Of a stretch of 64,000 bases of DNA, positions 4,060 through 55,289 are shown piece by piece. The notes beneath the pieces are model-generated. The model saw only the letters and a list, made by a program, of their open reading frames with translations. It did not search any database and was not told the origin of the DNA. Origin of the DNA: Eledone cirrhosa (Eukaryota); NCBI GenBank assembly GCA_964016885.1, contig OZ024740.1, forward strand, positions 176,886,001 through 176,950,000, written 5' to 3'. How positions within the stretch are numbered: the stretch's first letter is position 1; each line of letters starts with the position of its first letter. The translations under genes and the position numbers were made by a program.

Positions 4060-4926
4060 GACGTACATACATATATGTACATACATATACGTACAAAAAT
4101 ATATGTATACAGACGTACAGTAGTATGTATATATATACATACATGCGCACATATATATATGTACGTATGGGTTTATTATAGTGTTCGGTTTGTTTGTAAA
4201 CAAACATACGTATATATACTTACCTTTAAGCCGTACTAAGAGTGAGAAATTTCATTCAATTTCATTCTTTTCCATTTATCGTTTTCGGCGCCCGGCCGAC
4301 TAACTCACTCGATATGCAAATTAGGCTGCTCAGCCGTTAATATGCATAAGGAAAGTATATACTTTCAGACGTTCAACCATCTGGCAGGAAGGTATACGAT
4401 GCTGACGATAGCTAATAAGCTTGAAACTAGTTCATCGTTCCTTTGTCAGTGTTGAACAAAAGGGCGACGATGGTTGCCGAACACCGTATGGCTTAATTTC
4501 GGGCTGTTTGTTTACAAACAAACCGAACATTATAATAAATGTTCGGTAAACCCACACGTACATATATATATATGTGTGCATGTATGTATATATATACATA
4601 CTACTGTACGTCTATATACATATATGCATGTACGTATACATACTTACATTTAAGTATCAGCCGTACTAAGAGTGAGAAATTAAATTTCATTTCATTCTTT
4701 TCCATTTATCGTTTTCGGTACGCCCGGCCGACTAACTCACTCGATATGCAAATTAGGCTGCTCAGCCGTTAATATGCATAAGGAAAGTATATACTTTCAA
4801 ACGTTCAATCATCTGACAGGAAGGTATACGGTGGTGACGATAGGTAATAAACTTACATGTAAGTATACTTACATGTAAGTATCAGCCGTACTAAGAGTGA
4901 GAAATGAAATTTCATTTCATTCTTTT

Positions 4927-4930
<4 letters not shown>
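4060..4930 (+). mobile_element. Retrozyme-like HHR repeat, family B, locus 1 (about 430-bp unit; short inverted left arm 4060-4205)
   Basis: aagagtgagaaat recurs at 4238 and 4668; HHR at 4396; octamer at 4314-4321; homologous to 15312-16533. Confidence 0.8.
4396..4438 (+). ncRNA. Minimal type I hammerhead ribozyme (family B)
   Basis: acgatg-CTGACGA-t agct aata agct t-GAAA-ctag-TT-catcgt; palindromic stem III. Confidence 0.85.
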
Positions 4931-4971
<41 letters not shown>

Positions 4972-15260: not shown

Positions 15261-15311
<51 letters not shown>

Positions 15312-15316
<5 letters not shown>

Positions 15317-16528
15317 AGTATGTATGTATGTATACGTACATACATATATGTATACAGACGTACAGTAGTATGTATATATATACATACATGCACACACATA
15401 TATATATACGTATGGATTTACCGAACGTTTATTATAATGCTCGGTGTGTTTGTAAACAAACATCCCGAATTAAGCCGTACAGTGTTTAGCAACCATCGTT
15501 GCTCTTTTGTTCAACACTGACAGAGGAACGATGTACTAGTTTCAAGCTTATTAGCTATCGTCAGCATCGTATACCTTCCTGCCAGATGGTTGAACGTCTG
15601 AAAGTATATACTTTCCTTATGCATATTAACGGCTGAGCAGCCTAATTTGCATATCGAGTTAGTTCAGTCAGCCGGGCACACCGAAAACGATAAATGGAAT
15701 AGAATGAAACGAAATTTCATATCTCACTCTTAGGACGGCACTTACTTAAATGTAAGTATGTATGTATGTATATGTACATACATATATGTATACAGACGTA
15801 CAGTAGTTTGTATACATATATACATACATGCACACATATATATATATGCACGTATCGGTTTACCAAATATTTATTACAATGCTCGGTTTGTCCGTTTGTA
15901 AACAAACAAACAGCCCGAATTACGCCGTACAGTGTTTAGGCAAACACGTCAACTTTTTGTTCAACACTGACACATGAACGATGTACTAGTTTCATGCTTA
16001 TAACTATCGTCAGCATCGTGTACCTTCCTGCAAGATGGTTGAACGTCTGAAAGTATATATTTCCTTATGCATATTAACGGCTGAGCAGCCTAATTTGCAT
16101 ATCGAGTGAGTTCAGTCGGCCGGGCACACCGAAAACGATAAATGGAATAGAATGAAACGAAATTTCATTTCACACTCTTAGTGCGGCACTTACTTAAATG
16201 TAAGTATGTATGTATACGTACATACATATATGTATACAGACGTACAGTAGTATGTATATATATTCATACATGCACACATATATATATGCACGTATCGGTT
16301 TACCGAACATTTATTACGATGCTGACGATAGCTAATAAGCTTGAAATAGTGTAATAAATGTTCGGTAAACCGATACGTGCATATATATATATGTGCATGT
16401 ATGTATATATAGGCATACTACTGTACGTCTGTATACATATATGTATGTACGTATACATACATACATACTTACATTTAAGTAAGTGCCGTACTAAGAGTGA
16501 GAAATAAAATTTCGTTTCATTCTATTCC

Positions 16529-16533
<5 letters not shown>
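15312..16533. mobile_element. Retrozyme-like HHR repeat, family B, locus 2 (about 450-bp unit; minus arm to 16316, then plus arm)
   Basis: HHRs at 15528-15570 and 15978-16019 (-); partial HHR at about 16317-16350 (+) at the inversion; flanked by (AT)n. Confidence 0.85.
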
Positions 16534-16607
<74 letters not shown>

Positions 16608-17469: not shown

Positions 17470-17529
<60 letters not shown>

Positions 17530-17744
17530 GTTAAAAATGTACATCCACATATGTATACTGAAATACTAGTATGCATATGAATACACACACGTGTACATAT
17601 GTAGATGTACCGAGTTTTTCACTGGACACTTTACTGTGAGTGTCCAGCTATTCTGTATGTAAACACACAGACAAACCGGTTTTTAGAGTCATACTGGTTT
17701 TCGAGGAAACACCTTTCCTCTATTCTCCAGAAAGCCAGACAAGG

Positions 17745-17789
17745 AATATTGGACTAGTTTCGATGTTGTTACATCTCATCAGCAATATT
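17745..17789 (-). ncRNA. Minimal type I HHR, left arm (also 18211, 18677, 19143, 19609, 20075)
   Basis: Reverse complement of aatattg-CTGATGA-gatgt aaca acatc-GAAA-ctag-TC-caatatt. Confidence 0.92.
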
Positions 17790-20484
17790 TACCTATCTTC
17801 CGGCCTTTCTAGAGAATCGTAAAAGCACATATCGTTATATGCTTTTTCTATGAAAATTAGTAGTGGGCAGACTAATTTGCATAGAGCGTGAGTACGTACC
17901 GGTTCAGCGGAGACGATAAAAACAAATAACGAAACGAAATTAAATTTCGTTTCGTTTGTAACTCACTTTTGTATGACTGACGCTTAAACAATTAAGTTAA
18001 AAATGTACATCCACATATGTATACTGAAATACTAGTATGCATATGAATACACACACGTGTACATATGTAGATGTACCGAGTTTTTCACTGGACACTTTAC
18101 TGTGAGTGTCCAGCTATTCTGTATGTAAACACACAGACAAACCGGTTTTTAGAGTCATACTGGTTTTCGAGGAAACACCTTTCCTCTATTCTCCAGAAAG
18201 CCAGACAAGGAATATTGGACTAGTTTCGATGTTGTTACATCTCATCAGCAATATTTACCTATCTTCCGGCCTTTCTAGAGAATCGTAAAAGCACATATCG
18301 TTATATGATTTTTCTATGAAAATTAGTAGTGGGCAGACTAATTTGCATAGAGCGTGAGTACGTACCGGTTCAGCGGAGACGATAAAAACAAATAACGAAA
18401 CGAAATTAAATTTCGTTTCGTTTGTAACTCACTTTTGTATGACTGACGCTTAAACAATTAAGTTAAAAATGTACATCCACATATGTATACTGAAATACTA
18501 GTATGCATATGAATACACACACGTGTACATATGTAGATGTACCGAGTTTTTCACTGGACACTTTACTGTGAGTGTCCAGCTATTCTGTATGTAAACACAC
18601 AGACAAACCGGTTTTTAGAGTCATACTGGTTTTCGAGGAAACACCTTTCCTCTATTCTCCAGAAAGCCAGACAAGGAATATTGGACTAGTTTCGATGTTG
18701 TTACATCTCATCAGCAATATTTACCTATCTTCCGGCCTTTCTAGAGAATCGTAAAAGCACATATCGTTATATGCTTTTTCTATGAAAATTAGTAGTGGGC
18801 AGACTAATTTGCATAGAGCGTGAGTACGTACCGGTTCAGCGGAGACGATAAAAACAAATAACGAAACGAAATTAAATTTCGTTTCGTTTGTAACTCACTT
18901 TTGTATGACTGACGCTTAAACAATTAAGTTAAAAATGTACATCCACATATGTATACTGAAATACTAGTATGCATATGAATACACACACGTGTACATATGT
19001 AGATGTACCGAGTTTTTCACTGGACACTTTACTGTGAGTGTCCAGCTATTCTGTATGTAAACACACAGACAAACCGGTTTTTAGAGTCATACTGGTTTTC
19101 GAGGAAACACCTTTCCTCTATTATCCAGAAAGCCAGACAAGGAATATTGGACTAGTTTCGATGTTGTTACATCTCATCAGCAATATTTACCTATCTTCCG
19201 GCCTTTCTAGAGAATCGTAAAAGCACATATCGTTATATGCTTTTTCTATGAAAATTAGTAGTGGGCAGACTAATTTGCATAGAGCGTGAGTACGTACCGG
19301 TTCAGCGGAGACGATAAAAACAAATAACGAAACGAAATTAAATTTCGTTTCGTTTGTAACTCACTTTTGTATGACTGACGCTTAAACAATTAAGTTAAAA
19401 ATGTACATCCACATATGTATACTGAAATACTAGTATGCATATGAATACACACACGTGTACATATGTAGATGTACCGAGTTTTTCACTGGACACTTTACTG
19501 TGAGTGTCCAGCTATTCTGTATGTAAACACACAGACAAACCGGTTTTTAGAGTCATACTGGTTTTCGAGGAAACACCTTTCCTCTATTCTCCAGAAAGCC
19601 AGACAAGGAATATTGGACTAGTTTCGATGTTGTTACATCTCATCAGCAATATTTACCTATCTTCCGGCCTTTCTAGAGAATCGTAAAAGCACATATCGTT
19701 ATATGCTTTTTCTATGAAAATTAGTAGTGGGCAGACTAATTTGCATAGAGCGTGAGTACGTACCGGTTCAGCGGAGACGATAAAAACAAATAACGAAACG
19801 AAATTAAATTTCGTTTCGTTTGTAACTCACTTTTGTATGACTGACGCTTAAACAATTAAGTTAAAAATGTACATCCACATATGTATACTGAAATACTAGT
19901 ATGCATATGAATACACACACGTGTACATATGTAGATGTACCGAGTTTTTCTCTGGACACTTTACTGTGAGTGTCCAGCTATTCTGTATGTAAACACACAG
20001 ACAAACCGGTTTTTAGAGTCATACTGGTTTTCGAGGAAACACCTTTCCTCTATTCTCCAGAAAGCCAGACAAGGAATATTGGACTAGTTTCGATGTTGTT
20101 ACATCTCATCAGCAATATTTACCTATCTTCCGGCCTTTCTAGAGAATCGTAAAAGCACATATCGTTATATGCTTTTTCTATGAAAACCAGTTTTCCTCGA
20201 AAACCAGTATGACTCTAAAAACCGGTTTGTCTGTGTGTTTACATACAGAATAGCTGGACACTCACAGTAAAGTGTCCAGTGAAAAACTCGGTACATCTAC
20301 ATATGTACACGTGTGTGTATTCATATGCATACTAGAATTTCAGTATACATATGTGGATGTACATTTTTAACTTAATTGTTTAAGCGTCAGTCATACAAAA
20401 GTGAGTTACAAACGAAACGAAATTTAATTTCGTTTCGTTATTTGTATTTATCGTCTCCGCTGAACCGGTACGTACTCACGCTCT

Positions 20485-20492
20485 ATGCAAAT
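20485..20492 (+). promoter_or_regulatory. Octamer ATGCAAAT in each array unit, about 90 nt upstream of the HHR
   Basis: Exact octamer, also kept in family B (4314-4321); function is inferred only. Confidence 0.45.
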
Positions 20493-20577
20493 TAGTCTGC
20501 CCACTACTAATTTTCATAGAAAAAGCATATAACGATATGTGCTTTTACGATTCTCTAGAAAGGCCGGAAGATAGGTA

Positions 20578-20622
20578 AATATTGCTGATGAGATGTAACA
20601 ACATCGAAACTAGTCCAATATT
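20578..20622 (+). ncRNA. Minimal type I HHR, right arm (also 21044, 21510, 21978, 22444, 22910, 23376, 23844)
   Basis: aatattg-CTGATGA-gatgt aaca acatc-GAAA-ctag-TC-caatatt; GUC cleavage triplet; two copies read CTGACGA. Confidence 0.92.
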
Positions 20623-23600
20623 CCTTGTCTGGCTTTCTGGAGAATAGAGGAAAGGTGTTTCCTCGAAAACCAGTATGACTCTAAAAACCGGTTTGTCTGT
20701 GTTTTTACATTCAGAATAGCTGGACACTCACAGTAAAGTGTCCAGTGAAAAACTCGGTACATCTACATATGTACACGTGTGTGTATTCATATGCATACTA
20801 GTATTTCAGTATACATATGTGGATGTACATTTTTAACTTAATTGTTTAAGCGTCAGTCATACAAAAGTGAGTTACAAACGAAACGAAATTTAATTTCGTT
20901 TCGTTATTTGTTTTTATCGTCTCCGCTGAACCGGTACGTACTCACGCTCTATGCAAATTAGTCTGCCCACTACTAATTTTCATAGAAAAAGCATATAACG
21001 ATATGTGCTTTTACGATTCTCTAGAAAGGCCGGAAGATAGGTAAATATTGCTGATGAGATGTAACAACATCGAAACTAGTCCAATATTCCTTGTCTGGCT
21101 TTCTGGAGAATAGAGGAAAGGTGTTTCCTCGAAAGCCAGTATGACTCTAAAAACCGGTTTGTCTGTGTGTTTACATACAGAATAGCTGGACACTCACAGT
21201 AAAGTGTCCAGTGAAAAACTCGGTACATGTACATATGTACACGTGTGTGTATTCATATGCATACTAGTATTTCAGTATACATATGTGGATGTACATTTTT
21301 AACTTAATTGTTTAAGCGTCAGTCATACAAAAGTGAGTTACAAACGAAACGAAATTTAATTTCGTTTCGTTATTTGTTTTTATCGTCTCCGCTGAACCGG
21401 TACGTACTCACGCTCTATGCAAATTAGTCTGCCCACTACTAATTTTCATAGAAAAAGCATATAACGATATGTGCTTTTACGATTCTCTAGAAAGGCCGGA
21501 AGATAGGTAAATATTGCTGACGAGATGTAACAACATCGAAACTAGTCCAATATTCCTTGTCTGGCTTTCTGGAGAATAGAGGAAAGGTGTTTCCTCGAAA
21601 ACCAGTATGACTCTAAAAACCGGTTTGTCTGTGTGTTTACATACAGAATAGCTGGACACTCACAGTAAAGTGTCCACTGAAAAACTCGGTACATCTACAT
21701 ATGTACACGTGTGTGTATTCATATGCATACTAGTATTTCAGTATACATATGTGGATGTACACTTTTTTAACTTAATTGTTTAAGCGTCAGTCATACAAAA
21801 GTGAGTTACAAACGAAACGAAATTTAATTTCGTTTCGTTATTTGTTTTTATCGTCTCCGCTGAACCGGTACGTACTCACGCTCTATGCAAATTAGTCTGC
21901 CCACTACAAATTTTCATAGAAAAAGCATATAACGATATGTGCTTTTACGATTCTCTAGAAAGGCCGGAAGATAGGTAAATATTGCTGATGAGATGTAACA
22001 ACATCGAAACTAGTCCAATATTCCTTGTCTGGCTTTCTGGAGAATAGAGGAAAGGTGTTTCCTCGAAAACCAGTATGACTCTAAAAACCGGTTTGTCTGT
22101 GTGTTTACATTCAGAATAGCTGGACACTCACAGTAAAGTGTCCAGTGAAAAACTCGGTACATCTACATATGTACACGTGTGTGTATTCATATGCATACTA
22201 GTATTTCAGTATACATATGTGGATGTACATTTTTAACTTAATTGTTTAAGCGTCAGTCATACAAAAGTGAGTTACAAACGAAACGAAATTTAATTTCGTT
22301 TCGTTATTTGTTTTTATCGTCTCCGCTGAACCGGTACGTACTCACGCTCTATGCAAATTAGTCTGCCCACTACTAATTTTCATAGAAAAAGCATATAACG
22401 ATATGTGCTTTTACGATTCTCTAGAAAGGCCGGAAGATAGGTAAATATTGCTGATGAGATGTAACAACATCGAAACTAGTCCAATATTCCTTGTCTGGCT
22501 TTCTGGAGAATAGAGGAAAGGTGTTTCCTCGAAAACCAGTATGACTCTAAAAACCGGTTTGTCTGTGTGTTTACATTCAGAATAGCTGGACACTCACAGT
22601 AAAGTGTCCAGTGAAAAACTCGGTACATCTACATATGTACACGTGTGTGTATTCATATGCATACTAGTATTTCAGTATACATATGTGGATGTACATTTTT
22701 AACTTAATTGTTTAAGCGTCAGTCATACAAAAGTGAGTTACAAACGAAACGAAATTTAATTTCGTTTCGTTATTTGTTTTTATCGTCTCCGCTGAACCGG
22801 TACGTACTCACGCTCTATGCAAATTAGTCTGCCCACTACTAATTTTCATAGAAAAAGCATATAACGATATGTGCTTTTACGATTCTCTAGAAAGGCCGGA
22901 AGATAGGTAAATATTGCTGATGAGATGTAACAACATCGAAACTAGTCCAATATTCCTTGTCTGGCTTTCTGGAGAATAGAGGAAAGGTGTTTCCTCGAAA
23001 GCCAGTATGACTCTAAAAACCGGTTTGTCTGTGTGTTTACATACAGAATAGCTGGACACTCACAGTAAAGTGTCCAGTGAAAAACTCGGTACATCTACAT
23101 ATGTACACGTGTGTGTATTCATATGCATACTAGTATTTCAGTATACATATGTGGATGTACATTTTTAACTTAATTGTTTAAGCGTCAGTCATACAAAAGT
23201 GAGTTACAAACGAAACGAAATTTAATTTCGTTTCGTTATTTGTTTTTATCGTCTCCGCTGAACCGGTACGTACTCACGCTCTATGCAAATTAGTCTGCCC
23301 ACTACTAATTTTCATAGAAAAAGCATATAACGATATGTGCTTTTACGATTCTCTAGAAAGGCCGGAAGATAGGTAAATATTGCTGACGAGATGTAACAAC
23401 ATCGAAACTAGTCCAATATTCCTTGTCTGGCTTTCTGGAGAATAGAGGAAAGGTGTTTCCTCGAAAGCCAGTATGACTCTAAAAACCGGTTTGTCTGTGT
23501 GTTTACATACAGAATAGCTGGACACTCACAGTAAAGTGTCCAGTGAAAAACTCGGTACATCTACATATGTACACGTGTGTGTATTCATATGCATACTAGT

Positions 23601-24176
23601 ATTTCAGTATACATATGTGGATGTACACTTTTTTAACTTAATTGTTTAAGCGTCAGTCATACAAAAGTGAGTTACAAACGAAACGAAATTTAATTTCGTT
23701 TCGTTATTTGTTTTCATCGTCTCCGCTGAACCGGTACGTACTCACGCTCTATGCAAATTAGTCTGCCCACTACTAATTTTCATAGAAAAAGCATATAACG
23801 ATATGTGCTTTTACGATTCTCTAGAAAGGCCGGAAGATAGGTAAATATTGCTGATGAGATGTAACAACATCGAAACTAGTCCAATATTCCTTGTCTGGCT
23901 TTCTGAAGAATAGAGGAAAGGTGTTTCCTCGAAAACCAGTATGTCTCTAAAAACCGGTTTGTCTGTGTGTTTACATACAGAATAGCTGGACACTCACAGT
24001 AAAGTGTCCAGTGAAAAACTCGGTACATCTACATATGTACACGTGTGTGTATTCATATGCATACTAGTATTTCAGTATACATATGTGGATGTACATTTTT
24101 AACTTAATTGTTTAAGCGTCAGTCATACAAAAGTCAGTTACAAACGAAACGAAATTTAATTTCGTTTCGTTATTTG

Positions 24177-24238
<62 letters not shown>

Positions 24239-30114: not shown

Positions 30115-30560
30115 GAACTTGTGAGTACATTTTCCTTTAACTACAAATTATTATTATATACTTTCGTCTTTTCATTAATTTCAAATAACCAGAATATACA
30201 TATATATATATATATATACTCATATTTATATATATACGCTTCTCACTCACACACAAGAAAAACAAAAAACAAAAATAAATTTAAAAAAAAAATATATATA
30301 TTGAAATACTTAACTAAAACACACACACACGAACTTGTGAGTACATTTTCCTTTAACTACAAATTATTATTATATACTTTCGTCTTTTCATTAACTTAAT
30401 TAATTTCAAATAACCAGAATATACATATATATATATACTCATATTTATATATATACGCTTCTCACTCACACACAAGAAAAACAAAAAACAAAAATAAATC
30501 AAAAATAAATTTAAAAAAAAAATATATATATATTGAAATACTTAACTAAAACACACACAC
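30115..30560 (+). repeat. Tandem duplication of about 216 bp in the LINE 5' UTR
   Basis: gaacttgtgagtacattttcctttaac at 30115 and 30331. Confidence 0.85.
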
Positions 30561-30573
30561 ACTCAAAACTAGA

Positions 30574-31752
30574 ATGGCTAACCAGCAAAAATCCAAACAG
30601 AACTGGTCTGATAATGAAATCGACATTCTAATAAACACATGGCATTGCCTTTCCCAAACAGAAGATATAGATGCTTCATCTCTGAACGACATTGCTAAAC
30701 GTACAGTTCAATTTTTGAAAACTCGATCTGAACAACAGATTCAAAATAAATTAAAGCAAATCGAAATTGCTTTTAAATTAATCAATAAACATTTGGATAA
30801 ACTACGGTGTGTTTTCTCTTCGAATGCTGTCCAGCAGCAGCAACAACAACAACAGCAGCTACAACAGCAACAACAACAACAACAGCAGCTACAACAGCAA
30901 CAACAACAACAGCTACAACAACAACATCAACAACAGCTACAACAACAACATCAACAACAGCAACAACAACAGTGTGAACCACTCCTTGATTCATCAACAA
31001 TGGCCGATCTACTAAATGAAACTATTGACCCCCCAGTAGCCTCTGTCTCACAGCATGAAACGCCACATACTTTCTCTGGCCCAGCAGTCCAATCATCACC
31101 ACTGCCAACATCTCTGCCTACTACTACTACTACTACTACAACATTTTTGTCTACTGCTATGTCAAGGAATTTACCTTCTAATACCAGAACAAGAACTCTC
31201 CCTCCCACAGTCCACAAAGGTCGTCAAATCCTACCCAAACCATCATCTACACCTCTCACAACACCCACACCCATATACCCACCCACTCGAAACCCCATCA
31301 TTTGCCGCTACTCTCTACGCTATAGAATATGTACGGATAGTGGCTGCAAATTCACCCATTTACCTAGGACAAAACGATCTATCCCCACAAACAGCCACCA
31401 CCATAATACATACTCTAATTTAACACCAACACAACCACCAATAACTCAAACAAGGAATCCACAAATCTGCCGTTTTTCCCTGCGAGACAGATTGTGTTTA
31501 GACCGGGATTGTCCCTTTACCCATCTCCCGGGGACCCGTCGGATAAATGAAAATAAAAGCAAAAACAAAAACCATAACCTACATAAAAATAACCACTACC
31601 ACAGTCACCAACAGTCTTCTAAACAGGAAACTTCTTCCTCTTTTTTAGCCATAATGAATCTGGCAAAAGAACTGGAAAAAAACATTCGAGCTATCACCCA
31701 GCACCACCCTCCACTATCACCCCACTGCACAAACTCCCATTGCTGCCATTAA
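30574..31752 (+). CDS. LINE ORF1: Myb/trihelix-like N-terminus, polyQ tract, two CCCH zinc fingers
   Basis: WSDNEIDILINTW...RSEQQIQNKLKQI; C-x8-C-x4-C-x3-H twice (CRYSLRYRICTDSGCKFTH, CRFSLRDRLCLDRDCPFTH). Confidence 0.8.
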   Translation: MANQQKSKQNWSDNEIDILINTWHCLSQTEDIDASSLNDIAKRTVQFLKTRSEQQIQNKLKQIEIAFKLINKHLDKLRCVFSSNAVQQQQQQQQQLQQQQQQQQQLQQQQQQQLQQQHQQQLQQQHQQQQQQQCEPLLDSSTMADLLNETIDPPVASVSQHETPHTFSGPAVQSSPLPTSLPTTTTTTTTFLSTAMSRNLPSNTRTRTLPPTVHKGRQILPKPSSTPLTTPTPIYPPTRNPIICRYSLRYRICTDSGCKFTHLPRTKRSIPTNSHHHNTYSNLTPTQPPITQTRNPQICRFSLRDRLCLDRDCPFTHLPGTRRINENKSKNKNHNLHKNNHYHSHQQSSKQETSSSFLAIMNLAKELEKNIRAITQHHPPLSPHCTNSHCCH

Positions 31753-34700
31753 CAAACAAACAAATTAACAACACACCAAAACAATTAAAACCATCCACTC
31801 TCGCCTCTACATTTTTGCTTAACGCCCAAGGCATCAGCCCTTCCACCAATACTCAAAAATGGAAGATCAAATTCCTGGAGGACTGGATTGATGTCCATCC
31901 AAACCACATCCCTTTCTTCGTCCTCACTGAAACCCATCTCAGTAACCTCCACTTGGAAGCCGAGGTGAAAGTGAAAAATTTCAAAGCCATCCGTGCTGAT
32001 CGCGCTGGCAGAAGAAAGGGCGGAACTGCCATTTATGTCCATAATTCTTTCTCAACAGAGGCTATGAACATATTCACTAATGGATACTGTGAGGCAGTCA
32101 CTGTATTCAGTCAAACCAACAACCTATTAGTAGTTGGGCTCTATAGGCCACCCCAAACGCCTGTACCATGCTTCAAGGAATGCCTCAACAGCATAAAGTG
32201 TTTCATCCAAGAGTGTCACCCTGACAACATCTTAATGATGGGGGACTTCAACCTCCCCGGAGTTGACTGGTCCACAAACACCCTGCCACCAGGTTCTTCT
32301 GCCTCAACCTCTGACAGGGAAGCTGTGGAATCGCTTCTTGACTTCATGGATGATTTCTTCCTATCCCAACTAGTGCTCGAACCAACGAGGTGCCACAAAA
32401 ACGTCCTAGACTTAATTTTCAGCAATCACACTGACAATATCCACAATATTGCAGTGGAGAAAACTCTACTCTCTGATCATGACATGGTTCTCTGTGATCT
32501 GAGATTCCACCGTCCAATATACAAACCCAATGTCATTTCTCCTGTCCATCCGTTTGACGCTATGGATTTCCACAATGCAAACTGGGAAGCGATCAGTCAT
32601 GATCTTGCACATGTCGACTGGTCCTTCACGCACACTCATACACCCACTAACATCAAAAAGTCCTGGCAGACATTTGTGGACACTGTTACAAACATATGTG
32701 CTAAACACACCCCATTAAGAACTATAAACAAATCTAAGAGCAGAATCCCTAGAAATAGAAAAACGCTCATCAGAAAAATTAAGAGAACGAACAAAAAAAT
32801 CAACAATCTGAAATACTGTCAGCAGCAACACATCAACTTGACTGCCATTTCATCACTAGAGATTAAAAAACATAACCTCCAAAACAACATAATGTCCCTC
32901 ATCAACAATCAGAGAAGAGCTGAAGAGGCCTGGGCCATTGAGAAGATCAAACTCAATCCCAAAGTGTTCTTTTCATTTGCAAAAAAACACAAAATCACTG
33001 GCTCTACTGTTGGCCCTCTAATTGATGAAAATGGCACTCTTCAAGACAATGCTAAAACCATGGGTGAGATACTGCAGAAACAATACTGCTCTGTTTTCAG
33101 CAATCCTGATATGGCCGATCTGGGCTGTATCGGCGATGTTACTCCCCATTACACCTTATCGGACATAACGTTTGGCGCCCCTGATGTCTTGGCGGCAATA
33201 AAGGAAATCAAGCATAATTCAGCAGTAGGTCCCGATAGGTTCCCTGCTTGTGTCTTGAAGGCGTGTCAACACCAACTTGCTTCTCCTCTTGCCAATCTGT
33301 GGCGGAACTCACTGGATGCTGGATATGTGCCAGAAAACCTTCTATCCCAGTCTGTTGTCCCAGTTTTCAAAAAGGGAAACAAATCCCTTGCCGTGAATTA
33401 CAGTCCAATCTCACTCACCTCTCATATCATTAAGGTATTTGAGCGAGTGGTGAGATCGCGAATGACCCACTTCCTTGAGAGTAACAATATGCTGAACTCC
33501 AACCAGCATGGATTCCGTAATGGAAGGGATTGCCTGACGCAACTACTGCATCACTTTGATGACATTTTGAGAGCCTTGGGAGAGGGTTCCAACACTGATG
33601 TTATCTACCTTGATTTCAGCAAGGCCTTTGACAGGGTTGATCATAACATTCTACTGAGAAAGCTGTCCAATATTGGTGTCACTGGAAAGCTGCTGCAGTG
33701 GATCAAGAGCTTCCTGTCAAACAGAACCCAACATGTTGTAGTTGAGGGAGTCAAATCAAGCCCAGCCAAAGTCAGTAGTGGAGTCCCACAAGGCACTGTG
33801 TTGGGCCCACTTCTCTTCATCATCTATATTAATGACATCACTGACATCATCAAACACAGCAACATTAAAATTTTCGCTGATGATTCCAAGCTCCAAAAGG
33901 TCATCAATGGCGTGGATGACCGGATAAGCCTTCAGTCAGACCTACTGGCTGTTACCCAATGGGCAGAAAAGAACAACATGTTACTGAACGAAGACAAATT
34001 CGAACTGATCCACTTTGGAAAAGAGGATGCTCTGAAACTCCCGTACTCCCTTCCCTCCGGGGAAACTCTCGTGGCATCTAACAACATCAGAGACTTGGGA
34101 GTAACCGTGGACAGCAACATAAGCTGGACCACGCATATAAGCAGCAAAGTTGACATGGCCCGCAGAATGTGTTCCTGGATCCTCAGAACCTTCCAGTCGA
34201 GAGATTCCCGCACCATTATCCTTCTCTTCTCTACTTTCGCCCGACCACACCTTGAATACTGTTGTCCACTGTGGTCTCCCCACACGAAACAAAGTATCAT
34301 GAAACTTGAAGCTCCTCAAAGGGCAATCACGAAAAAGATAGATGGCATGTCAGACCTTGACTACTGGGGTCGATTGGAAAACCTGAAACTTTACTCACTC
34401 CAACGTCGCCGTGAGCGTTATATTATCTGCATGATGTGGAAAATGTTCCATCATCACTGCCCAAATGATGTTGGCATCGCCTTCAAGATACACCCAAGGC
34501 TTGGGCCCCGTGCTATCCGTCCCATTCAAAAATCTAAATCGCAACTCATAACAACAATACGGCACAATTATTTCACCTCAATCGGCCCTGCTCTCTTCAA
34601 CATCACACCAGGACACGTCAAAACAGAAACTGACCACACAAAATTCAAGAAGTCTTTGGACAAATTCCTCCAAGTAATCCCGGACAAACCACCCACACCC

Positions 34701-34760
34701 GGATATGTCTCCGCAAACAGTAATTCTCTTCTCGAATGGGCCATGGTGCCCAAATCCTGA
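31740..34760 (+). CDS. LINE ORF2: apurinic-like endonuclease + reverse transcriptase
   Basis: LNAQG, LTETHL, GDFN, LDLIF, SDH; DFSKAFD, GVPQGTVLGP, FADD. No ATG before the endonuclease motifs; frame open from 31623. Confidence 0.95.
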   Translation: MLPLTNKQINNTPKQLKPSTLASTFLLNAQGISPSTNTQKWKIKFLEDWIDVHPNHIPFFVLTETHLSNLHLEAEVKVKNFKAIRADRAGRRKGGTAIYVHNSFSTEAMNIFTNGYCEAVTVFSQTNNLLVVGLYRPPQTPVPCFKECLNSIKCFIQECHPDNILMMGDFNLPGVDWSTNTLPPGSSASTSDREAVESLLDFMDDFFLSQLVLEPTRCHKNVLDLIFSNHTDNIHNIAVEKTLLSDHDMVLCDLRFHRPIYKPNVISPVHPFDAMDFHNANWEAISHDLAHVDWSFTHTHTPTNIKKSWQTFVDTVTNICAKHTPLRTINKSKSRIPRNRKTLIRKIKRTNKKINNLKYCQQQHINLTAISSLEIKKHNLQNNIMSLINNQRRAEEAWAIEKIKLNPKVFFSFAKKHKITGSTVGPLIDENGTLQDNAKTMGEILQKQYCSVFSNPDMADLGCIGDVTPHYTLSDITFGAPDVLAAIKEIKHNSAVGPDRFPACVLKACQHQLASPLANLWRNSLDAGYVPENLLSQSVVPVFKKGNKSLAVNYSPISLTSHIIKVFERVVRSRMTHFLESNNMLNSNQHGFRNGRDCLTQLLHHFDDILRALGEGSNTDVIYLDFSKAFDRVDHNILLRKLSNIGVTGKLLQWIKSFLSNRTQHVVVEGVKSSPAKVSSGVPQGTVLGPLLFIIYINDITDIIKHSNIKIFADDSKLQKVINGVDDRISLQSDLLAVTQWAEKNNMLLNEDKFELIHFGKEDALKLPYSLPSGETLVASNNIRDLGVTVDSNISWTTHISSKVDMARRMCSWILRTFQSRDSRTIILLFSTFARPHLEYCCPLWSPHTKQSIMKLEAPQRAITKKIDGMSDLDYWGRLENLKLYSLQRRRERYIICMMWKMFHHHCPNDVGIAFKIHPRLGPRAIRPIQKSKSQLITTIRHNYFTSIGPALFNITPGHVKTETDHTKFKKSLDKFLQVIPDKPPTPGYVSANSNSLLEWAMVPKS

Positions 34761-43466: not shown

Positions 43467-43865
43467 ATTAGTATGTGTCAGTGTGTGTATGTGTATTTAT
43501 ACTGGGTATTTGTTGTTGTTATTGTCTATCCGATTTGTAAATGTTGTTTATGCAATCTATATAAACCATTTTCAAAATCAATTTAGTATTTGCTACTAAA
43601 AAAAAAATGAATTCAATTCTGTTTATCATTTAGTGTTGATCGGGTTATTCTTGATATAGCGACTTCTGTTCCATTCTGAGAATGATGACGACAACAGATT
43701 CCTACTATATATACTCCTCTCTATTTAATTATTTTCTCAGTTTTACGAGTGCAAAGAAGCTATTTTTCAAACCGAGAAATGTATATGGAATTAGCTAGTA
43801 GGTTTGTTCCTAAGTAACAAAGTGACGACAAAAGTTGCTAAACTAATGAAGTAGCTGCAGTTAGT

Positions 43866-45010
43866 CCAGAATAAGTTTGACTGCGTCTAATATAAATGGC
43901 GCTGTGAGTCTGGTGGGAATCACTTCTCTATGTTTTTCCACCCAGTATTTAACCGTCTTTATTCCTAAATCATGCGTAATGTTGGTGTAAAAGCTTACCA
44001 CATCAAAACTAAGTAGAAGTGAACTCGTTTCCCTGGTTTTGGGAAGATGGGACAGGAAGTCGATATCATCCCGAATGAAACTGGGTATGTGAATACATAG
44101 TGGTTTCAAAATAATGTCAACAAAATTGCTTAGACGGTGGGTAGGGCATGTTGGACCAGCTATAATAGGTATAAGTTTTAAGTCTTTTGGGTGTAGTAAT
44201 TTAATGTACTCACCTTTTTATTCTTTTACTGCCAGTTGTATTTCTTTTGACTTATGAACTTTCGGTAGGCCATACAGGTTGCTGGGTTTGACTCAAAATT
44301 GGGGATGTAGTCTCTTTCCTTATCAGTAAGTGAGTTGTATTTTGAAGCCAGGTTGTTGATCTTCTTCATGATGTTGTGGTCTATATTTGACGGTATTTCA
44401 TGATAGAATGTTGTGTCTTTCAGTTGTTCCTCAACCAAATCTTTGTAGTATTCAGCATCCATTATAACAATTGTACCTCCTTTATCTGCTTGTTTAATTA
44501 TTATTGTTTTATCATTTTGTATGCGTTTAAGTGCAGACATTTCTGATTTGTTAATGTTTGGTCTAACATTAGTATTACGTCTAAGAGGAAATTTAGACAG
44601 GATGTCAATGTATTGGTCGAGATAGATATTTCTTCCTTTTGGCGGAGTGAAATTTGATTTATTCTTTACTAGTGATTCATCACTCTCATTACTTTTATCA
44701 GTGAAGAATTCTACAAGTCGTAATTTTCGACAGAATTCTTGGGTATCCTCCTTCAGTTCTTGGTGGTTGACTGTTGGAGTCGGTGTGAATTTCAGTCCTT
44801 TTGACAGAATTTGCATTTGATCATTGTCGGATATCTTTTGGATAAATTAATTATTTTAGGATCTACGTGTACAGTTGTTTTGGGTATGTTTTCTCCTGGA
44901 GTTTTTAACATTTAATATTCTACCATACTATTTCATTCTAATACCATTATAATTTTAAAGGATTATAAATAAAACGAGTAAATCAGACAAAGTTGGAATT
45001 CCTTTTATGA
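43866..45010 (-). pseudogene. Inverted duplicate of the 5' part of the PLE at 46155
   Basis: ORFs 44226-44816 and 43861-44109 are near-identical to 46259-46945 and 47062-47430. Confidence 0.92.
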
Positions 45011-45765: not shown

Positions 45766-46258
45766 AATAAACGAAGCTAAATTTTAAACATTTGACTTAT
45801 TTATTTTACTTTATTTTACATTACTCCGGAGTAACCAAACCAACCTGCGCAACTCGTCGAGTGCTCCAGCCTGCATACTGAGGTGTTGGTATACAACCAA
45901 CATATACTCAAAATCTACATATATATACAAGTGGAAGGTTAGTAAAATCGATGTTATAGCAGCGGTCAGACCAACGAGCTACAATTAGATTTGCGCAAAG
46001 CACTCAATAAGAACGTATCGATAAACCGATAGGCTACACCTTAGAGTAATTAACATACGTTAGATAGAGTGACAAATTGAAAACTGCGGCTAAGGGGCAT
46101 ATCCACATAATTCGCCAAAACAACGAAAATACAATCAGGTTAAATATATATATATATATTAATAAAAGGAATTCCAACTTTGTCTGATTTATTCGTTTTA
46201 TTTACAATCCTTTAAAATTATAATGGTATTAGAATGAAATAGTATGGTAGAATATTAA

Positions 46259-48539
46259 ATGTTAAAAACTCCAGGAGAAAACATACCCAAAACAACTGAA
46301 CACGTAGATCCTAAAATAATTAATTTATCCAAAAGAGATCTTGACAATGATGAAATGCAAATTCTGTCAAAAGGACTGAAATTCACACCGACACCAACAG
46401 TCAACCACCAAGAACTGAAGGAGGATACCCAAGAATTATGTCGAAAATTACGACTTGTAGAATTCTTCACTGATAAAAGTAATGAGAGTGATGTATCACT
46501 AGTAAAGAATAAATCAAATTTCACTCCGCCAAAAGGAAGAAAAATCTATCTCGACCAATACATTGACATCCTGTCTAAATTTCCTCTTAGGCGTAATACT
46601 AATGTTAGACCAAACATTAACAAATCAGAAATGTCTGCACTTGAACGCATACAAAATGATAAAACAATAATAATTAAACAAGCAGATAAAGGGGGTACAA
46701 TTGTTATAATGGATGCTGAATACTACAAAGATTTGGTTGAGGAACAACTGAAAGACACAACATTCTATCATGAAATACCGTCAAATATAGACCACAACAT
46801 CATGAAGAAGATCAACAACCTGGCTTCAAAATACAACTCACTTACTGATAAGGAAAGAGACTACATCCCCAATTTTGAGTCAAACCCAGCAACCTGTATG
46901 GCCTACCGAAAGTTCATAAGTCAAAAGAAATACAACTGGCAGTAAAAGAATAAAAAGGTGAGTACATTAAATTACTACACCCAAAAGACTTAAAACTTAT
47001 ACCTATTATAGCTGGTCCAACATGCCCTACCCACCGTCTAAGCAATTTTGTTGACATTATTTTGAAACCACTATGTATTCACATACCCAGTTTCATCCGG
47101 GATGATATCGACTTCCTGTCCCATCTTCCCAAAACCAGGGAAACGAGTTCACTTCTACTTAGTTTTGATGTGGTCAGCCTTTACACCAACATTACGCATG
47201 ATTTAGGAATAAAGGCGGTTAAATACTGGGTGGAAAAACATAGAGAAGTGATTCCCACCAGACTCACAGCGCCATTTATATTAGACGCAGTCAAACTTAT
47301 TCTGGAAAACAACACTTTCTTCTTCAATGGACAGAATTATATCCAAATTATAGGCACAGCGATGGGAGCGAAGTTTGCTCCCGTTTACGCGAACTCTGTA
47401 ATGGGATACTTAGAACAACAACTCGACTAAGAAATAGAGGAAAAATATAGCACTGACTTTAGAAAGTACATTGAAAAGTCTTGGAAGAGATACCTTGACG
47501 ACTGTTTCATCATCTGGACAGAATCTCTAGATACTCTGGATGAGTTCATATCCTCCTGAATAACCTACGCCCATCTCTCCAATTCACAAAAGAGATGAGT
47601 AGTACCAAATTACCATTCCTAGATATAATGGTAATCAAAAACGACACCGCCATTACCAAGGATATATATTATAAACACACAGACACCCATCAATATCTGA
47701 ATTTTAAGTCGTGCCATCCACCTCATACAAAACGCAACATCCCATACTGCCTAGCCAGAAGAATTTGTACCATTGTAGAAGATACGAATACCAGGAACAA
47801 ACGCCTAACAGAACTGAGACAATTTTTATTCAAACAAAAATACCATCTCGACTTATAGAAAATGGCATACAGCGGGCTATAAAAATACCTATACAACAAC
47901 TTAGGACAACCCAAGGACGACGAAACCAAGAACTGGTCATACCATTTATAATGACACACAACCCATGTCACCGGAATATCTTCAACACTGCCAACGCAAA
48001 CCCACCGATCATTGCTCAAAGTAATCAATTAAAAGGTTTAATCACAGACCGATCTTTGACTCTTAGTAAAAGACAGCCGAAAAATGTGAAGCAATTACTA
48101 ACAAAGGCAAAGTTTGACCTTAACAACAAAGACCAATCATTCACATGTATCTAAATGCAATGATAGTCGTTGTGGCACATGTCAGTTCATACATACTGGT
48201 CAATATATGAACACAAAAACTGGAAAAATATTCCCCAATGCAAATATGAACTGCAAAAGCAGAAATCTAATTTACTGCATTAAATGCCCGAATTGTGAAG
48301 AACTATATGTCGGTCAAACTGGAAATGCACTATCGGAACGTGCACGGGTGCACCGACAGCAAATAGGAGACCCAAATGTCCGTCAAATACCCCTGAGTAA
48401 CCATCTAACAACATGTGGTCAGAAAATATTTATAATATTTCCATTCTACAAATTACATCATAGCCCAAGTGAAATCAAGAGAAAAATTAAAGAAAAGAAT
48501 TTTATTGATAAATTCCAACCCAAGCTAAATGAACAATAA
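46259..48539 (+). pseudogene. PLE RT + GIY-YIG ORF, frameshifted
   Basis: LSKGLKFTP, KQADKGG, SFDVVSLYTNI, GTAMG, RYLDD, FLD, CNDSRCGTC, LIYCIKC..LYVGQTG. Confidence 0.92.
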
Positions 48540-48911
48540 TAATGCTTAGGGGGTATTACTCCTACTATGACTACGCCTATGACCAACAACAACAACAATA
48601 ATAATAATAATAAAAGTGATGTTGATGGTGATGATTACGGAAGACTAGAAAATGCTATTTTCATCATTTCTAAAAATAGCAAAACAATTGATGCTTTGGA
48701 TAGGTTCAAATAGAAGTCGTTAGACATGCTCAACCAACCGTGACGCCTAAACCAATCAGCTTTAATAATCCAGTGAAACTACACACTGATTGGTCGAAAT
48801 ACAGTTTGCAAAACTTAGCATTCTGTAGCTGCTTTTCATTGTATATAAGGCACAAAATTTACCCATCTCATTACAGTTGAAAATTGCAAACTTGACTGTC
48901 ACCACAGAATA

Positions 48912-48950
48912 TGAACCTGAAGATTGCGAAAGCATGAAAGTACTTGTTCA
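48912..48950 (+). ncRNA. Minimal type I HHR in the 3' repeat of PLE 1
   Basis: tgaac-CTGAAGA-t tgc gaaa gca t-GAAA-gtac-TT-gttca. Confidence 0.88.
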
Positions 48951-49107
48951 ATTAACACTTAACATTTAATATTCTACCATACTATTTCATTCTAATACCA
49001 TTATAAATTTTAAAGGATTGTAAATAAAACGAGTAAATCAGACAAAGTTGGAATTCCTTTTATTAATATAATCTTCTGTACACAATTATACACACCCGTG
49101 TATATTC

Positions 49108-49169
<62 letters not shown>

Positions 49170-49171
<2 letters not shown>

Positions 49172-52100
49172 TAAAATAACAGATTAAAGTTTAAACAAAG
49201 AATCGCTGCTTTCACCCTTAACGGGATCTTCTGAAACTAACAAAGTCAATCTGTAAACGCAGAAGTGGATATTTCAAAAAACGTTGCAACCGGAGGAAGA
49301 CAGGAAGACGATACTTTGGTTCGTGGACATGTTCGCTGGCAAAGAACGGGAAAAAAGGAATAAGATACGTCATTAATAGGAGCGGTGAAAAACAATTACG
49401 CGCAAAGACAGAATCACGTTTATGGTATAAAAGAGGTCGTAGACTAATGTTCTCTTAAGGGTGAAAGCACCGATTCTTTGCTTAAACTTTAATCTGTTAT
49501 TTTAATAAATATTTGCTCTACGGTTCTTATATATTTGATATATATTTATCCTTATCGAGCCCTCTTTGGATTTTAGTCTTGAAATTTATTATTATTACTA
49601 TTTGGCTCCCTCGGTTGAGCACTCTACTGACTTATATTCATCATGCAGAAACAACATCTGAATATTTCTACAAAGAACATACCCGTACCGAGCAGGAAAA
49701 CATACCTAAAACTCCTGATACAGAAAACAGACGCGTTCATTAAAAGGTTGCGTTGGCGTGCCTTTTACTTAGATAACCCGCGGAAAGCAGACAACAAACA
49801 GGATAAATTTGGATTTAAAACCTATAATAACCCCCCGTGTAACCCAGCATTGCTACCCTTCGAAAATGATGTCTTGGAACTCATTCGGAGTATCAAATTT
49901 CGGAATAGGGGCAATTCCTTACAGCATGACCTGAAGAATAGAATTCGTTCTATTAAGGATTCTAATGCCGTGCACGTCTATTCCGACAAAACTGGCAACC
50001 TATATCGAGTGGAGCGCAGTACTTATCATCAACTACTACATAATGCTGTAACTAAGGATTACCGTACAACTAATCGGTGCGTCATCAATGAAATCAACGA
50101 TGCTGGTTTTAAAATCACATCTGATCTCAACATCCTGGACCGGACCGAACCTCTGGACCCTATTTCTCCCCACTTTACCCTGAAGGATCACAAATCCAAT
50201 TTTCCGAACAACCCCTCTATTCGGCTTATTAACCCTACGAAGTCCGATTTAGGTAGACTTAGTAAAACAATTCTTGATAGAATTATACCTGAAATTAGAA
50301 GTTTGGCCCCTCTTGCACTGTGGAACAATTCTTTCGCGGTGATTGATTGGTTCAACGGCATATGTAACAAGGAACATTGCCGTTTTATCCAATTCGACAT
50401 CAACAATTACTACTCCTCCATCACTTTACCACTTCTCCTTAGAGCTATCAATTTCGCTAAAACACTCACAGTGGTTAAGGATTTCGAAGTTGATGTCATC
50501 CTCTATGCCCGAAAGTCGTGATTAATTTCGACGACTCTATTTGGATTAAACAATCCAATAGTACCCCATTCGACGTGAGCATGGGCGCCAGTGATTCTGC
50601 GGAGGTTACTGATCTTATCGGCCTTTTCCTTCTTTTCTCTATCAAGGACGAATTCCCCAACGCGGGCGGTGGTTTGTACCATGACGATGGTCTTTTGACC
50701 ATGACTAAGTGCGGACCTCGTGCTTGCGACAGGTTCAGAAAAGAACTCACAGCCTTCTTTAAAGGCTTCAACCTCTCTATACAGGTTGAGGCCAATCTCT
50801 CGGTCGTTAATTACCTTGACGTTGCCCTCAATTTATTGAATGGGTTGTATTACCCGTATAGAAAGCCGAACCTGGTAAGAAACGTTTCGTTGAGGCTTTC
50901 GCGTCTTTCGACCAACGAGCGTATTTTCAACGACCATTCCACTTATTACAATGAAGCTCTTGCTCGAAGTGGATTTGTGGATAAGGTAGCATATACAGAG
51001 TACGAAAATAGACCTAGAAGAAATAGATCCCGTCGCATTTTTTGGTATAACCCACCATATAATATGGAGGTGACCACACCATTAGCTAAGATCTTTCTTT
51101 CCCTTATTACGAAGCATTTTCCCCCTACACATAAATATAGTAAAATTTTTAATAGAAATACTATTAAAATTTCTTACTCTACGACTCCTAACCTTGCACA
51201 TAACATCACAGCTTCAAATTTAGCTAAACTACCTAGCTGTAGGAACACGTGCAACCCTGTAGTTAGTACTAACTGTAATTGTAGGAATCGGGTTGATTGC
51301 CCCCTATCCAGGAAATGCGTCTCTAGTAACATTGTCTACAAATGTAAGGTTGTAACACCCACGTCCCGTAGGGCCTACATAGGGTTAACCGCCAATAGAT
51401 TCAAGCAGCGTCTTTACACTCATACCCATTCTTTTCGTTACCCTCTAAGAAGGAATATGACGTCACTTTCAGCTTTTATCTGGAGTCTAAAAGACAACCA
51501 CGCCCAATATAAGTTACACTGGGAGATCCTAGCTAGGGCTAGATCGTATAACGGAAATAAAAGACCATGTGACCTCTGCGCCGCTGAGGCCCTGGAAATA
51601 CACTACGCCACAGACCACATCTTAAACAAAAAATCTGAGGCAATTTCGACTTGTAAACATAAATTGCACAAAACTTTCCTGTATTACAGCCCCACGTTAT
51701 ACCCTAATGGATAGTACGATCTATACGTGGATATTTTACGTCTTGATGTGGGAGCTAAGTATATGTTTTGTTTATACCATTACTTATTTGCATAGGTAAG
51801 TATATATTACCCGTATGTTTCGTGAAGGTACGTATACCTTCTCGTACGTATATTTGATTGTTTATGTTATGGCGTAAAAAGATTTTTTATTTTTTTTATT
51901 CTGGTACATATGGTTTGGCTATGTGTATACGGGAGTTTTGCGTCTGTGTGAGTATGCAGGTTCGTACGTATGTAGAGTGTGTGTATATGTTTACTTCATG
52001 TTTTGGTTGACTTACGTCTCCGAACTTTCGTGTATTTACATGTAGGTATGTGTGTGCGCTTGTTATATACGTATTTATTTATTTATATACGTTTATATAA

Positions 52101-55275: not shown

Positions 55276-55289
55276 CCAATATATATATG

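What the first reader, a model, noticed from the sequence alone, without database searches (positions are those of the whole stretch)
20170..20215. The array flips once, with both arms pointing outward and a template-switch junction
Seen: HHRs are on the minus strand left of about 20187 and on the plus strand to the right. The junction reads ctatGAAAAccagt-tttcctcGAAAAccagt, i.e. GAAAA microhomology plus a short duplicated segment. Inference: two concatemeric cDNAs (about 5.7 and 8.6 units) were primed from the two ends of a break in (AT)n and joined centrally, as expected for rolling-circle reverse transcription of a circular RNA. Unequal crossing-over alone does not explain this.
Basis: partly seen in the sequence, partly recalled or inferred. 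Interest (0 to 1): 0.8.

Follow-up and report, generated by a model that had tools for sequence, protein, structure and literature searches.

The report
Two-armed retrozyme with paired Penelope ends
This back-to-back flip in a repeat carrying a predicted self-cutting RNA motif is the normal shape of a family with thousands of copies, whose two arms nearly always end at two different fixed sites, one each, which suggests that a Penelope-type jumping-gene enzyme copied one, likely circular, RNA from both sides of a single DNA break.

Summary
Confirmed. The 466-bp hammerhead array flips once: 6 hammerhead motifs on minus, 8 on plus, junction GAAAA microhomology + 5 templated bases + restart. Short contigs of two public runs (one sample) cross it without differences. 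It is the family's rule: of 157 insertions examined, 101 are outward two-armed, none purely inward. Both arms share one haplotype (0.6% vs 6.3% apart). This is the known Penelope-like footprint (inverted arm, one-sided tail, (TA)n target, two RT starts), also seen on RT/GIY-YIG elements of this genome. Best reading: a non-LTR retrozyme inserted by dual priming on one RNA, arms joined by microhomology end joining. A circular template is favoured (no run-off at the cleavage site, fixed private alleles) but not shown; the right arm seems partly duplicated later. No partner element found. The scan noted this architecture before on other DNA of this genome; my paper searches did not find it described for retrozymes.

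The parts
17470..17523 (.). left (TA)n tract, half of the presumed target
17524..20186 (-). left arm, 5.71 units; outer (RNA 3') end at unit position 228 = short 'S' start site; inner end at position 362; only single-unit variants
17752..20112 (-). six minimal type I hammerhead motifs, 466 bp apart (17752-17782 ... 20082-20112)
20182..20186 (+). GAAAA microhomology shared by the left arm and unit positions 50-54 of the right-arm sequence
20187..20191 (+). 5-base templated insertion (unit 55-59); with the microhomology it forms a 10-bp repeat of 20199-20208
   Evidence: (period-17 row); crossed by contigs
20192..24183 (+). right arm, 8.57 units; inner end at unit position 43; outer (RNA 3') end at position 302 = tailed 'T' start site
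20585..23881 (+). eight minimal type I hammerhead motifs (20585-20615 ... 23851-23881)
20616..23881 (+). units with right-arm-only variants recurring four units apart (20616-22015 vs 22482-23881): likely later block duplication or conversion
   Evidence: lag 4: 3 shared substitutions, plus a shared 2-bp insertion
24110..24183 (+). one-sided 'tail' (unit 229-302), present at this end only; unit 241-300 is among the most conserved parts of the unit
24184..24236 (.). right (TA)n tract

Best explanation
The array is one insertion of a non-coding hammerhead repeat family whose copies face outward in two arms that end at two different fixed sites and share one sequence variant, and it was likely made when a Penelope-like reverse transcriptase/endonuclease cut both strands of a (TA)n tract and extended both 3' ends on one, probably circular, RNA, after which the two cDNAs were likely joined by microhomology end joining. 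Steps: (1) SHOWN: outward two-arm shape, one S (228-233) and one T (296-303) end, (TA)n flanks, shared haplotype, random inner ends, microhomology and templated bases at junctions. (2) INFERRED from structure covariation: the unit works as a folded RNA with a hammerhead. (3) INFERRED from Cervera 2020: transcripts self-cleave to monomers and are ligated to circles. (4) INFERRED from Frangieh 2024 and from the same footprint on RT/GIY-YIG elements here: a PLE protein dimer binds the RNA near the conserved tail and places one RT start at S and the other at T, one per target end. (5) INFERRED: both RTs run the same way round the circle with strand displacement, through cleavage and start sites, until they fall off at random. 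(6) INFERRED: the left cDNA end paired at GAAAA on the right cDNA, copied 5 bases, slipped and rejoined at the right cDNA end (polymerase theta-like, or the RT itself). (7) INFERRED: later unequal exchange duplicated about four units in the right arm.
For: Outward 101 vs purely inward 0 of 157 insertions; 52 vs 0 of 77 in the similarity-ascertained set, which was not chosen by its ends. One S + one T end: 56 of 57 two-ended insertions in the C1 0-79 Mb end scan (both end types listed) and 53 of 54 in the similarity set; 43 of 44 and 48 of 49 with only BLAST-defined arms; no T+T; p about 4e-16 and 3e-15 against a coin toss. Arms of one locus 0.59% apart vs 6.3% on re-pairing (39 loci; lowest of 2000 permutations 4.6%). 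Direct joins with microhomology >=3: 9 of 31 vs 6.1% expected, p 7e-5; 18 of 54 junctions have inserts >=5 bp, many copied from nearby unit sequence. Inner ends uniform (chi-square p 0.24) and not at the cleavage site (7 of 194, 8.3 expected): no run-off at a hammerhead-made 5' end. 11 of 62 two-armed loci with >=3 units carry an allele fixed in every unit of both arms and in no other sampled locus; L070 has 19.9 units without a variant. 7 double-sided compensatory pair types vs 1-2 in slid controls. Same inverted arm with a one-sided tail of 61 nt in GIY-YIG-bearing loci L145, L147, L151, of 36 nt in L159, of 86 nt in window 49164-52826; second hammerhead family at window 15309-16534 has the same shape with homologous ends. 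Literature.
Against: No expression or circle evidence for this family. No autonomous partner with a similar pLTR or tail among 32 GIY-YIG loci plus the window's PLE region, out of 10,596 candidates. Identical sister arrays exist (L070 type), so homogeneity could come from homogeneous source arrays read as linear multimers; only about 157 of thousands of loci were sampled, so 'private' alleles may have unsampled sources. Some loci have variants shared between arms but not in all units (16 patterns), which a monomer circle does not give; the register test is inconclusive (27 concordant vs 23.6 expected of 41). The RNA-editing test is weak (A>G 22 vs T>C 13, p 0.076; both-arm subset 12 vs 10), and the shifted spectrum of fixed alleles can come from mis-polarisation or GC-biased conversion. 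In Frangieh 2024 hammerhead cleavage was not needed and uncleaved linear RNA was the main substrate in vitro. Exceptions exist: S+S at L123 (compound), L185, and two loci picked as odd (L124, L125); 55 of 157 show one long arm only. The insertion class is inflated by nearby substitutions in about five rows. Arm lengths are not exponential (KS p 0.001).
Confidence: 0.6

Rival explanations
1. Same Penelope-type dual priming, but the template is an uncleaved linear multimer read from a homogeneous source array, or two sister RNAs held by one protein dimer, so no rolling circle is needed.
For: Uncleaved RNA was the dominant substrate for the anole PLE in vitro. Identical sister arrays exist. Non-fixed variants shared by both arms in 16 patterns, some in register (L038, L048, L171). 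Everything about ends, orientation and junctions fits equally.
Against: Inner ends are not enriched at the cleavage site; no daughter array repeating another locus's ordered run of variants was seen (19 locus pairs share >=2 polymorphic substitutions; most in different units, and the two clustered cases L017/L090 and L097/L185 lie in one edge or divergent unit); median arm is 442 bp, below one unit, so linear copying alone would shrink arrays; locus-private alleles fixed in both arms in 11 of 62.
Confidence: 0.25
2. One arm is reverse transcribed and the other is a DNA-level copy of it (fold-back self-priming as proposed for rotifer Penelope, or strand invasion), with the endonuclease trimming the tail from one end.
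For: Explains shared haplotype and a one-sided tail; proposed for PLEs (passages).
Against: Inner ends of the two arms are not near-symmetric (12 of 97 within 25 nt, 10.6 expected; KS p 0.27); arm lengths uncorrelated (rho -0.04, n 56); the S arm is the longer in 43 of 110, up to 30.7 vs 0.7 units (L054).
Confidence: 0.07
3. A satellite that grew by unequal crossing-over and was inverted afterwards by DNA repair, or a foldback/Helitron-like DNA element with fixed termini.
For: Block duplications inside long arms (window lag 4; L021 period 4; L164 period about 3). Li et al. 2026 favour unequal crossover for tandem growth.
Against: Inversion is the rule, always outward, with a different junction in every locus and two different fixed outer ends; arms under one unit are common; RNA-structure covariation; dispersed on many chromosomes. 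It accounts only for later changes in arm length.
Confidence: 0.05
4. Assembly or amplification chimera that creates inverted repeats.
For: Palindromic tandem arrays are hard to assemble; no long read was available; the confirming runs are one sample.
Against: Junction crossed without differences by contigs of two runs; a chimera would not give heterologous fixed outer ends in 109 of 111 loci.
Confidence: 0.02

Closest known systems
Metazoan non-LTR retrozymes (Cervera and de la Pena 2020, PMC7229834; Li, Clavereau and Pollet 2026, 10.64898/2026.07.22.740005)
   Same: Non-coding tandem units of a few hundred bp, low GC (36-37%), one type I hammerhead per unit, dimers to long multimers, dispersed, in a genome rich in PLEs; mobilisation by PLE RT on a circular RNA is proposed there.
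   Different: The passages and sections read describe no inverted two-arm structure, tail or fixed ends ('inverted' and 'orientation' 0 hits in PMC7229834; 'tail', 'head-to-head', 'orientation' 0 hits in the preprint). Unit 466 nt. No pLTR homology found here.
EN+ Penelope-like elements (Craig 2021, PMC8557442; Arkhipova 2013, PMC3846280; Frangieh 2024, PMC11167929)
   Same: Inverted 5'-truncated head-to-head copy, tail often at one end only, microsatellite/(TA)n bias, two adjacent internal RT starts bounding the tail, both target strands cut and extended, predicted dimer.
   Different: No ORF; both arms are multimers; tail about 72 nt (30-40 in the papers; 36-86 in this genome's elements); a near-strict one-each pairing is counted here, whereas the in vitro work saw no difference in start site between strands and did not test pairing.
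L1 twin priming (10.1101/2024.08.27.596794, passages)
   Same: Both target nicks prime on one RNA; inverted arm; microcomplementarity joins the cDNAs.
   Different: In L1 the second primer anneals at a variable internal site and the first cDNA stops near it; here both starts are fixed, both cDNAs cover the same sequence repeatedly, and inner ends are not enriched at the other start (11 of 106 vs 8.6; 9 of 96 vs 7.8).
Polymerase theta-mediated end joining (review PMC12426944, passages)
   Same: Short microhomologies and small insertions templated from flanking sequence, some iterative.
   Different: Substrate would be two cDNA flaps; the enzyme is not identified here and the RT could make the jump.

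Membership tests
Metazoan non-LTR retrozyme | Tandem units of 150-1000 bp each with a type I hammerhead motif | tested here: met
   about 9,300 motif copies in the genome; Rfam gathering scan empty
Metazoan non-LTR retrozyme | Non-coding; no LTRs | tested here: met
   no stop-free frame of 220 aa or more inside the array; ends abut (TA)n directly; PBS/PPT not searched separately
Metazoan non-LTR retrozyme | Structure conserved at RNA level | tested here: met
   fold z -9.6; 7 compensatory pair types vs 1-2 in slid controls, including hammerhead stem II; relatedness not corrected
Metazoan non-LTR retrozyme | Hammerhead self-cleavage | not testable with these tools
   stem III is minimal; only 1 of 9 Xenopus elements cleaved in Li 2026, so activity cannot be assumed
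Metazoan non-LTR retrozyme | Expressed as linear and circular RNA | not testable with these tools
   no RNA holder listed
PLE-mobilised insertion | Inverted head-to-head 5'-truncated arm | tested here: met
   101 outward, 0 purely inward of 157
PLE-mobilised insertion | Tail at one end only, bounded by two fixed internal ends | tested here: met
   109 of 111 two-ended insertions outside the picked set
PLE-mobilised insertion | (TA)n or AT-rich target | tested here: met
   the end scan was ascertained on ATATAT, the similarity sets were not
PLE-mobilised insertion | Target-site duplication where discernible | tested here: inconclusive
   17 of 89 loci share an interrupted motif in direct orientation, 8 inverted, 2% in controls; periodic tracts confound; none discernible at this locus
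PLE-mobilised insertion | Homology to the pLTR or tail of an autonomous partner | tested here: inconclusive
   none in 32 GIY-YIG loci and the window's PLE region, of 10,596 candidates
Autonomous PLE | RT plus GIY-YIG ORF | tested here: not met
   no ORF in the array
L1-type twin priming | First cDNA ends near the second priming site; second site variable | tested here: not met

The most novel reading that the evidence does not exclude
Each insertion records one protein dimer gripping a single 466-nt RNA circle at two sites 72 nt apart and running two reverse transcriptases round it at once, one from each side of a cut (TA)n: a double rolling-circle integration that would be the general Penelope mechanism, explain the one-sided tail and inverted arm, and show that animal hammerhead circles are written into genomes as concatemers in one step.
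Probability: 0.4. Interest if true: 0.8.

Novelty: new variant of a known kind. Interest (0 to 1): 0.55.

Why it matters
How animal retrozymes move, and how Penelope-like elements make their inverted arms and one-sided tails, are open questions: the papers read propose PLE mobilisation and a circular template, and call the mechanism unresolved. A young family with thousands of insertions gives a countable footprint: the two target ends use different fixed starts on RNA of one haplotype. That constrains the geometry of the PLE complex (one start per target end), names two exact sites to test in the existing in vitro system, and separates what insertion makes (orientation, ends, junction) from what later exchange adds (arm length). 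The single junction given in the finding is ordinary for its family; the value lies in the family rule.

Tried and rejected
Rfam scan of the window: 0 matches. Sequencing runs: no RNA holder listed; not evidence. Empty (AT)n allele: not tested, no reads were laid on the left flank; the question is open. Fold-back junctions: rejected. Continuity of the two arms as in L1 twin priming: not seen. Run-off at the hammerhead site: not seen. Exponential arm lengths: rejected. Register of shared variants: inconclusive (tie handling missed the L035 pattern seen). RNA-editing asymmetry: weak (145 loci used; L088, L123, L185, L163, L090, L017, L097 and L112 left out as duplicate, compound or mis-aligned at edges). 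Mutation spectrum of fixed alleles differs from singletons (p 5e-8) but is confounded, so not used as support. Autonomous partner: none in 32 loci. An apparent T+T pair (L067) proved to be two insertions; an apparent inward pair (L126) two insertions. L087/L088 are a segmental duplicate and were counted once. Junction analysis covered 54 of 101 two-armed loci (those with an arm long enough for a self-reference; this window's junction was analysed by hand). Papers: six searches listed no paper describing two-armed retrozyme insertions; most subscription papers, including Arkhipova 2006, are not in the library.

Full report
1. The observation. The window holds a 466-bp tandem array at 17524-24183 between two (TA)n tracts. 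Each unit has a minimal type I hammerhead motif: six on the minus strand (17752-20112) and eight on plus (20585-23881). Taking the hammerhead strand as RNA sense and numbering the unit from the base after the predicted cleavage site, the left arm (17524-20186, 5.71 units) has its outer end at position 228 and inner end at 362; the right arm (20192-24183, 8.57 units) has its inner end at 43 and outer end at 302. The junction is as described: GAAAA (20182-20186) is shared by the left arm and unit 50-54, CCAGT (20187-20191) continues unit 55-59, then the right arm restarts at 43. The junction 28-mer is unique in the genome. Contigs from runs X2 and X3 cross 20157-20220 with no difference; they are one sample and may be the assembled one, so this argues against an assembly error but is not population evidence.

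2. The family. The genome (3.0 Gb) has about 9,300 copies of the hammerhead motif, 1,239 forward matches to 'unit 296-302 followed by ATATAT' and 578 to 'unit 228-233 followed by ATATAT', controls 0 (reverse counts are inflated by overlapping matches). I fetched the loci read from three similarity searches (each scored only about 40 candidates; 37 other loci and a chosen 38 new ones, favouring multi-unit arrays), every end that both pattern lists gave on C1 0-79.4 Mb, and three odd-looking pairs beyond: 157 insertions after merging overlaps and dropping one segmental duplicate. 101 are (minus, plus), that is RNA 3' ends outward; one is compound; 55 have one long arm, some with a second arm of 8-24 bp; none is purely inward. 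In the similarity set, which is not chosen by its ends, the count is 52 to 0 of 77.

3. Outer ends fall at two sites about 72 nt apart, S (228-233) and T (296-303), and an insertion with both ends defined has one of each: 56 of 57 in the end scan (19 more had one end only or ran into an edge or gap) and 53 of 54 in the similarity set (23 more likewise); with BLAST-defined arms only, 43 of 44 and 48 of 49. No T+T was seen; S+S occurs at L123 (two subfamilies abutting), L185, and L124 and L125, which I picked for that reason. Either end can be on the left (63 S, 47 T). The two arms of a locus are 0.59% apart against 6.3% on random re-pairing (39 loci). Arm lengths are uncorrelated and neither arm is systematically longer. 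Inner ends are uniform over the unit, not at the cleavage site (7 of 194, 8.3 expected), not symmetric and not at the other arm's start. Of 54 junctions analysed, 21 have microhomology, 10 are blunt and 23 have inserts (about five of these are artefacts of nearby substitutions); microhomology of 3 or more occurs in 9 of 31 direct joins against 6.1% (p 7e-5), and many inserts repeat nearby unit sequence.

4. RNA-level signs. The unit folds far better than shuffles (z -9.6). Across 123 locus haplotypes, seven predicted pairs change on both sides, against 1-2 in slid controls; 19 single-sided keeping and 21 breaking types are also seen; unit 241-300, the tail, varies least along with 361-390. Hammerhead stem II swaps in a compensated way. 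Cleavage and expression are untested.

5. The footprint is Penelope's. Craig 2021 (passages) describes an inverted 5'-truncated copy, a 30-40 bp tail often at only one end and (TA)n bias; Arkhipova 2013 (passages) the same, with head-to-head geometry and a self-priming proposal; Frangieh 2024 (parts 1-2 of 4) shows two internal RT starts bounding the tail, cleavage and extension of both strands at AT-rich DNA, a predicted dimer, and no need for hammerhead cleavage. This genome has 10,596 GIY-YIG candidates. Of 14 PLE-type stretches checked for an inverted self-repeat, 13 gave one; five show an inverted arm with a one-sided tail at (TA)n: L145, L147, L151 (61 nt, one family), L159 (36 nt) and window 49164-52826 (86 nt); the others were not interpretable (domains; the window element matches a PLE profile only weakly). 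A second hammerhead family, collinear with this one (score 327 vs shuffle maximum 183), lies at window 15309-16534 with the same outward shape and ends at the homologous sites. No autonomous element with a similar pLTR or tail was found in 32 loci.

6. Mechanism. Shown: shape, ends, pairing, shared haplotype, junction types. Inferred: a PLE protein cuts both strands of (TA)n; each 3' end is extended on the RNA, one from S and one from T. The pairing and shared haplotype point to one complex and most simply one RNA unit. Since both cDNAs copy the same sequence in the same direction, the trailing one must displace the leading one, which is natural on a circle. For the circle: no run-off at the cleavage site, alleles fixed in all units of both arms and in no other sampled locus (11 of 62), a 19.9-unit locus without variants, a median arm under one unit so that multimers must be regenerated. 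Against or neutral: identical sister arrays, non-fixed variants shared by both arms with an inconclusive register test (27 vs 23.6 of 41), weak editing asymmetry (22 vs 13, p 0.076), and the in vitro preference for uncleaved RNA. I put dual PLE-type priming at about 0.85 and a circular template, given that, at about 0.7. At the junction the left cDNA continues in plus sense, so its template there was the other cDNA, not the RNA; anneal, copy five bases, release and rejoin is the model for polymerase theta templated insertions (review passages), but the enzyme is not identified. In this locus, variants found only in the right arm recur four units apart, so about four units were probably added after insertion; similar periodic blocks occur in L021 and L164.

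7. Comparison and novelty. As a sequence class it fits metazoan non-LTR retrozymes (Cervera 2020: Discussion and passages; Li 2026: parts 1-3 of 5 and a term search), with cleavage and circles untested. Those papers propose PLE mobilisation from co-occurrence and pLTR homology and do not mention inverted arms or tails in what I read; supplements were not read (Cervera's Figure S9 model and the preprint's closed files could bear on this). L1 twin priming (passages) gives an inverted arm from a linear RNA, so outward arms alone do not prove a circle, but its other predictions fail here. Six searches listed no description of two-armed retrozyme insertions. This scan's earlier notes report the same architecture for 310-, 422- and 467-470-nt families of this genome; they are unchecked AI notes and not counted as support.

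8. Verdict. Real, typical of its family, explained in outline by the known Penelope footprint on a retrozyme. The new part is the counted one-each coupling with multimeric arms of one haplotype. New variant of a known kind; interest 0.55.

Noticed in passing
window 15309-16534: Second hammerhead family (450-nt unit, collinear with the 466-nt unit): 2.3-unit minus arm, short plus arm, ends at the homologous S and T sites, junction with a templated piece of the hammerhead; another copy at 4074-4934.
   Followed up: partly
window 49164-52826: Broken RT element with a YIG-type C-terminal motif (label recalled; weak PLE profile match), direct terminal repeat, inverted 294-bp arm and an 86-nt tail at one end, in (TA)n.
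   Followed up: partly
window 46155-49070: Frameshifted PLE with GIY-YIG match at 48267-48530 and 112-bp inverted termini; close to L143/L144; further PLE fragments at 43765-44825 and 55289-56643.
   Followed up: no
window 30550-34757: LINE with a 400-aa ORF and a 1045-aa endonuclease-RT ORF that appears open.
   Followed up: no
unit positions 335-342 (e.g. window 20485-20492): ATGCAAAT is conserved between the two hammerhead families; recalled, not checked, as the octamer of snRNA-type promoters, which would make each unit self-transcribing.
   Followed up: no
all S+T loci: Very short arms (30 bp or less) are S arms in 14 and T arms in 4 of 110 loci; could reflect the T-primed RT displacing an early S-primed cDNA, or ascertainment.
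   Followed up: no
L054, L164, L070, L107: Longest arms: 30.7, 26.9, 13.0 and 15.6 units; L070 is invariant over 19.9 units, L164 has an insertion recurring about every third unit in one arm only.
   Followed up: partly
L086: Single arm of 7.0 units whose inner end lies at unit 297, next to the T site, and joins (TA)n directly.
   Followed up: no
L035, L038, L039, L096: Variants alternate between units in both arms, as a dimeric template would give.
   Followed up: partly
L123: Two subfamilies abut tail-to-tail at the hairpin 262-290, forming a four-armed compound.
   Followed up: no
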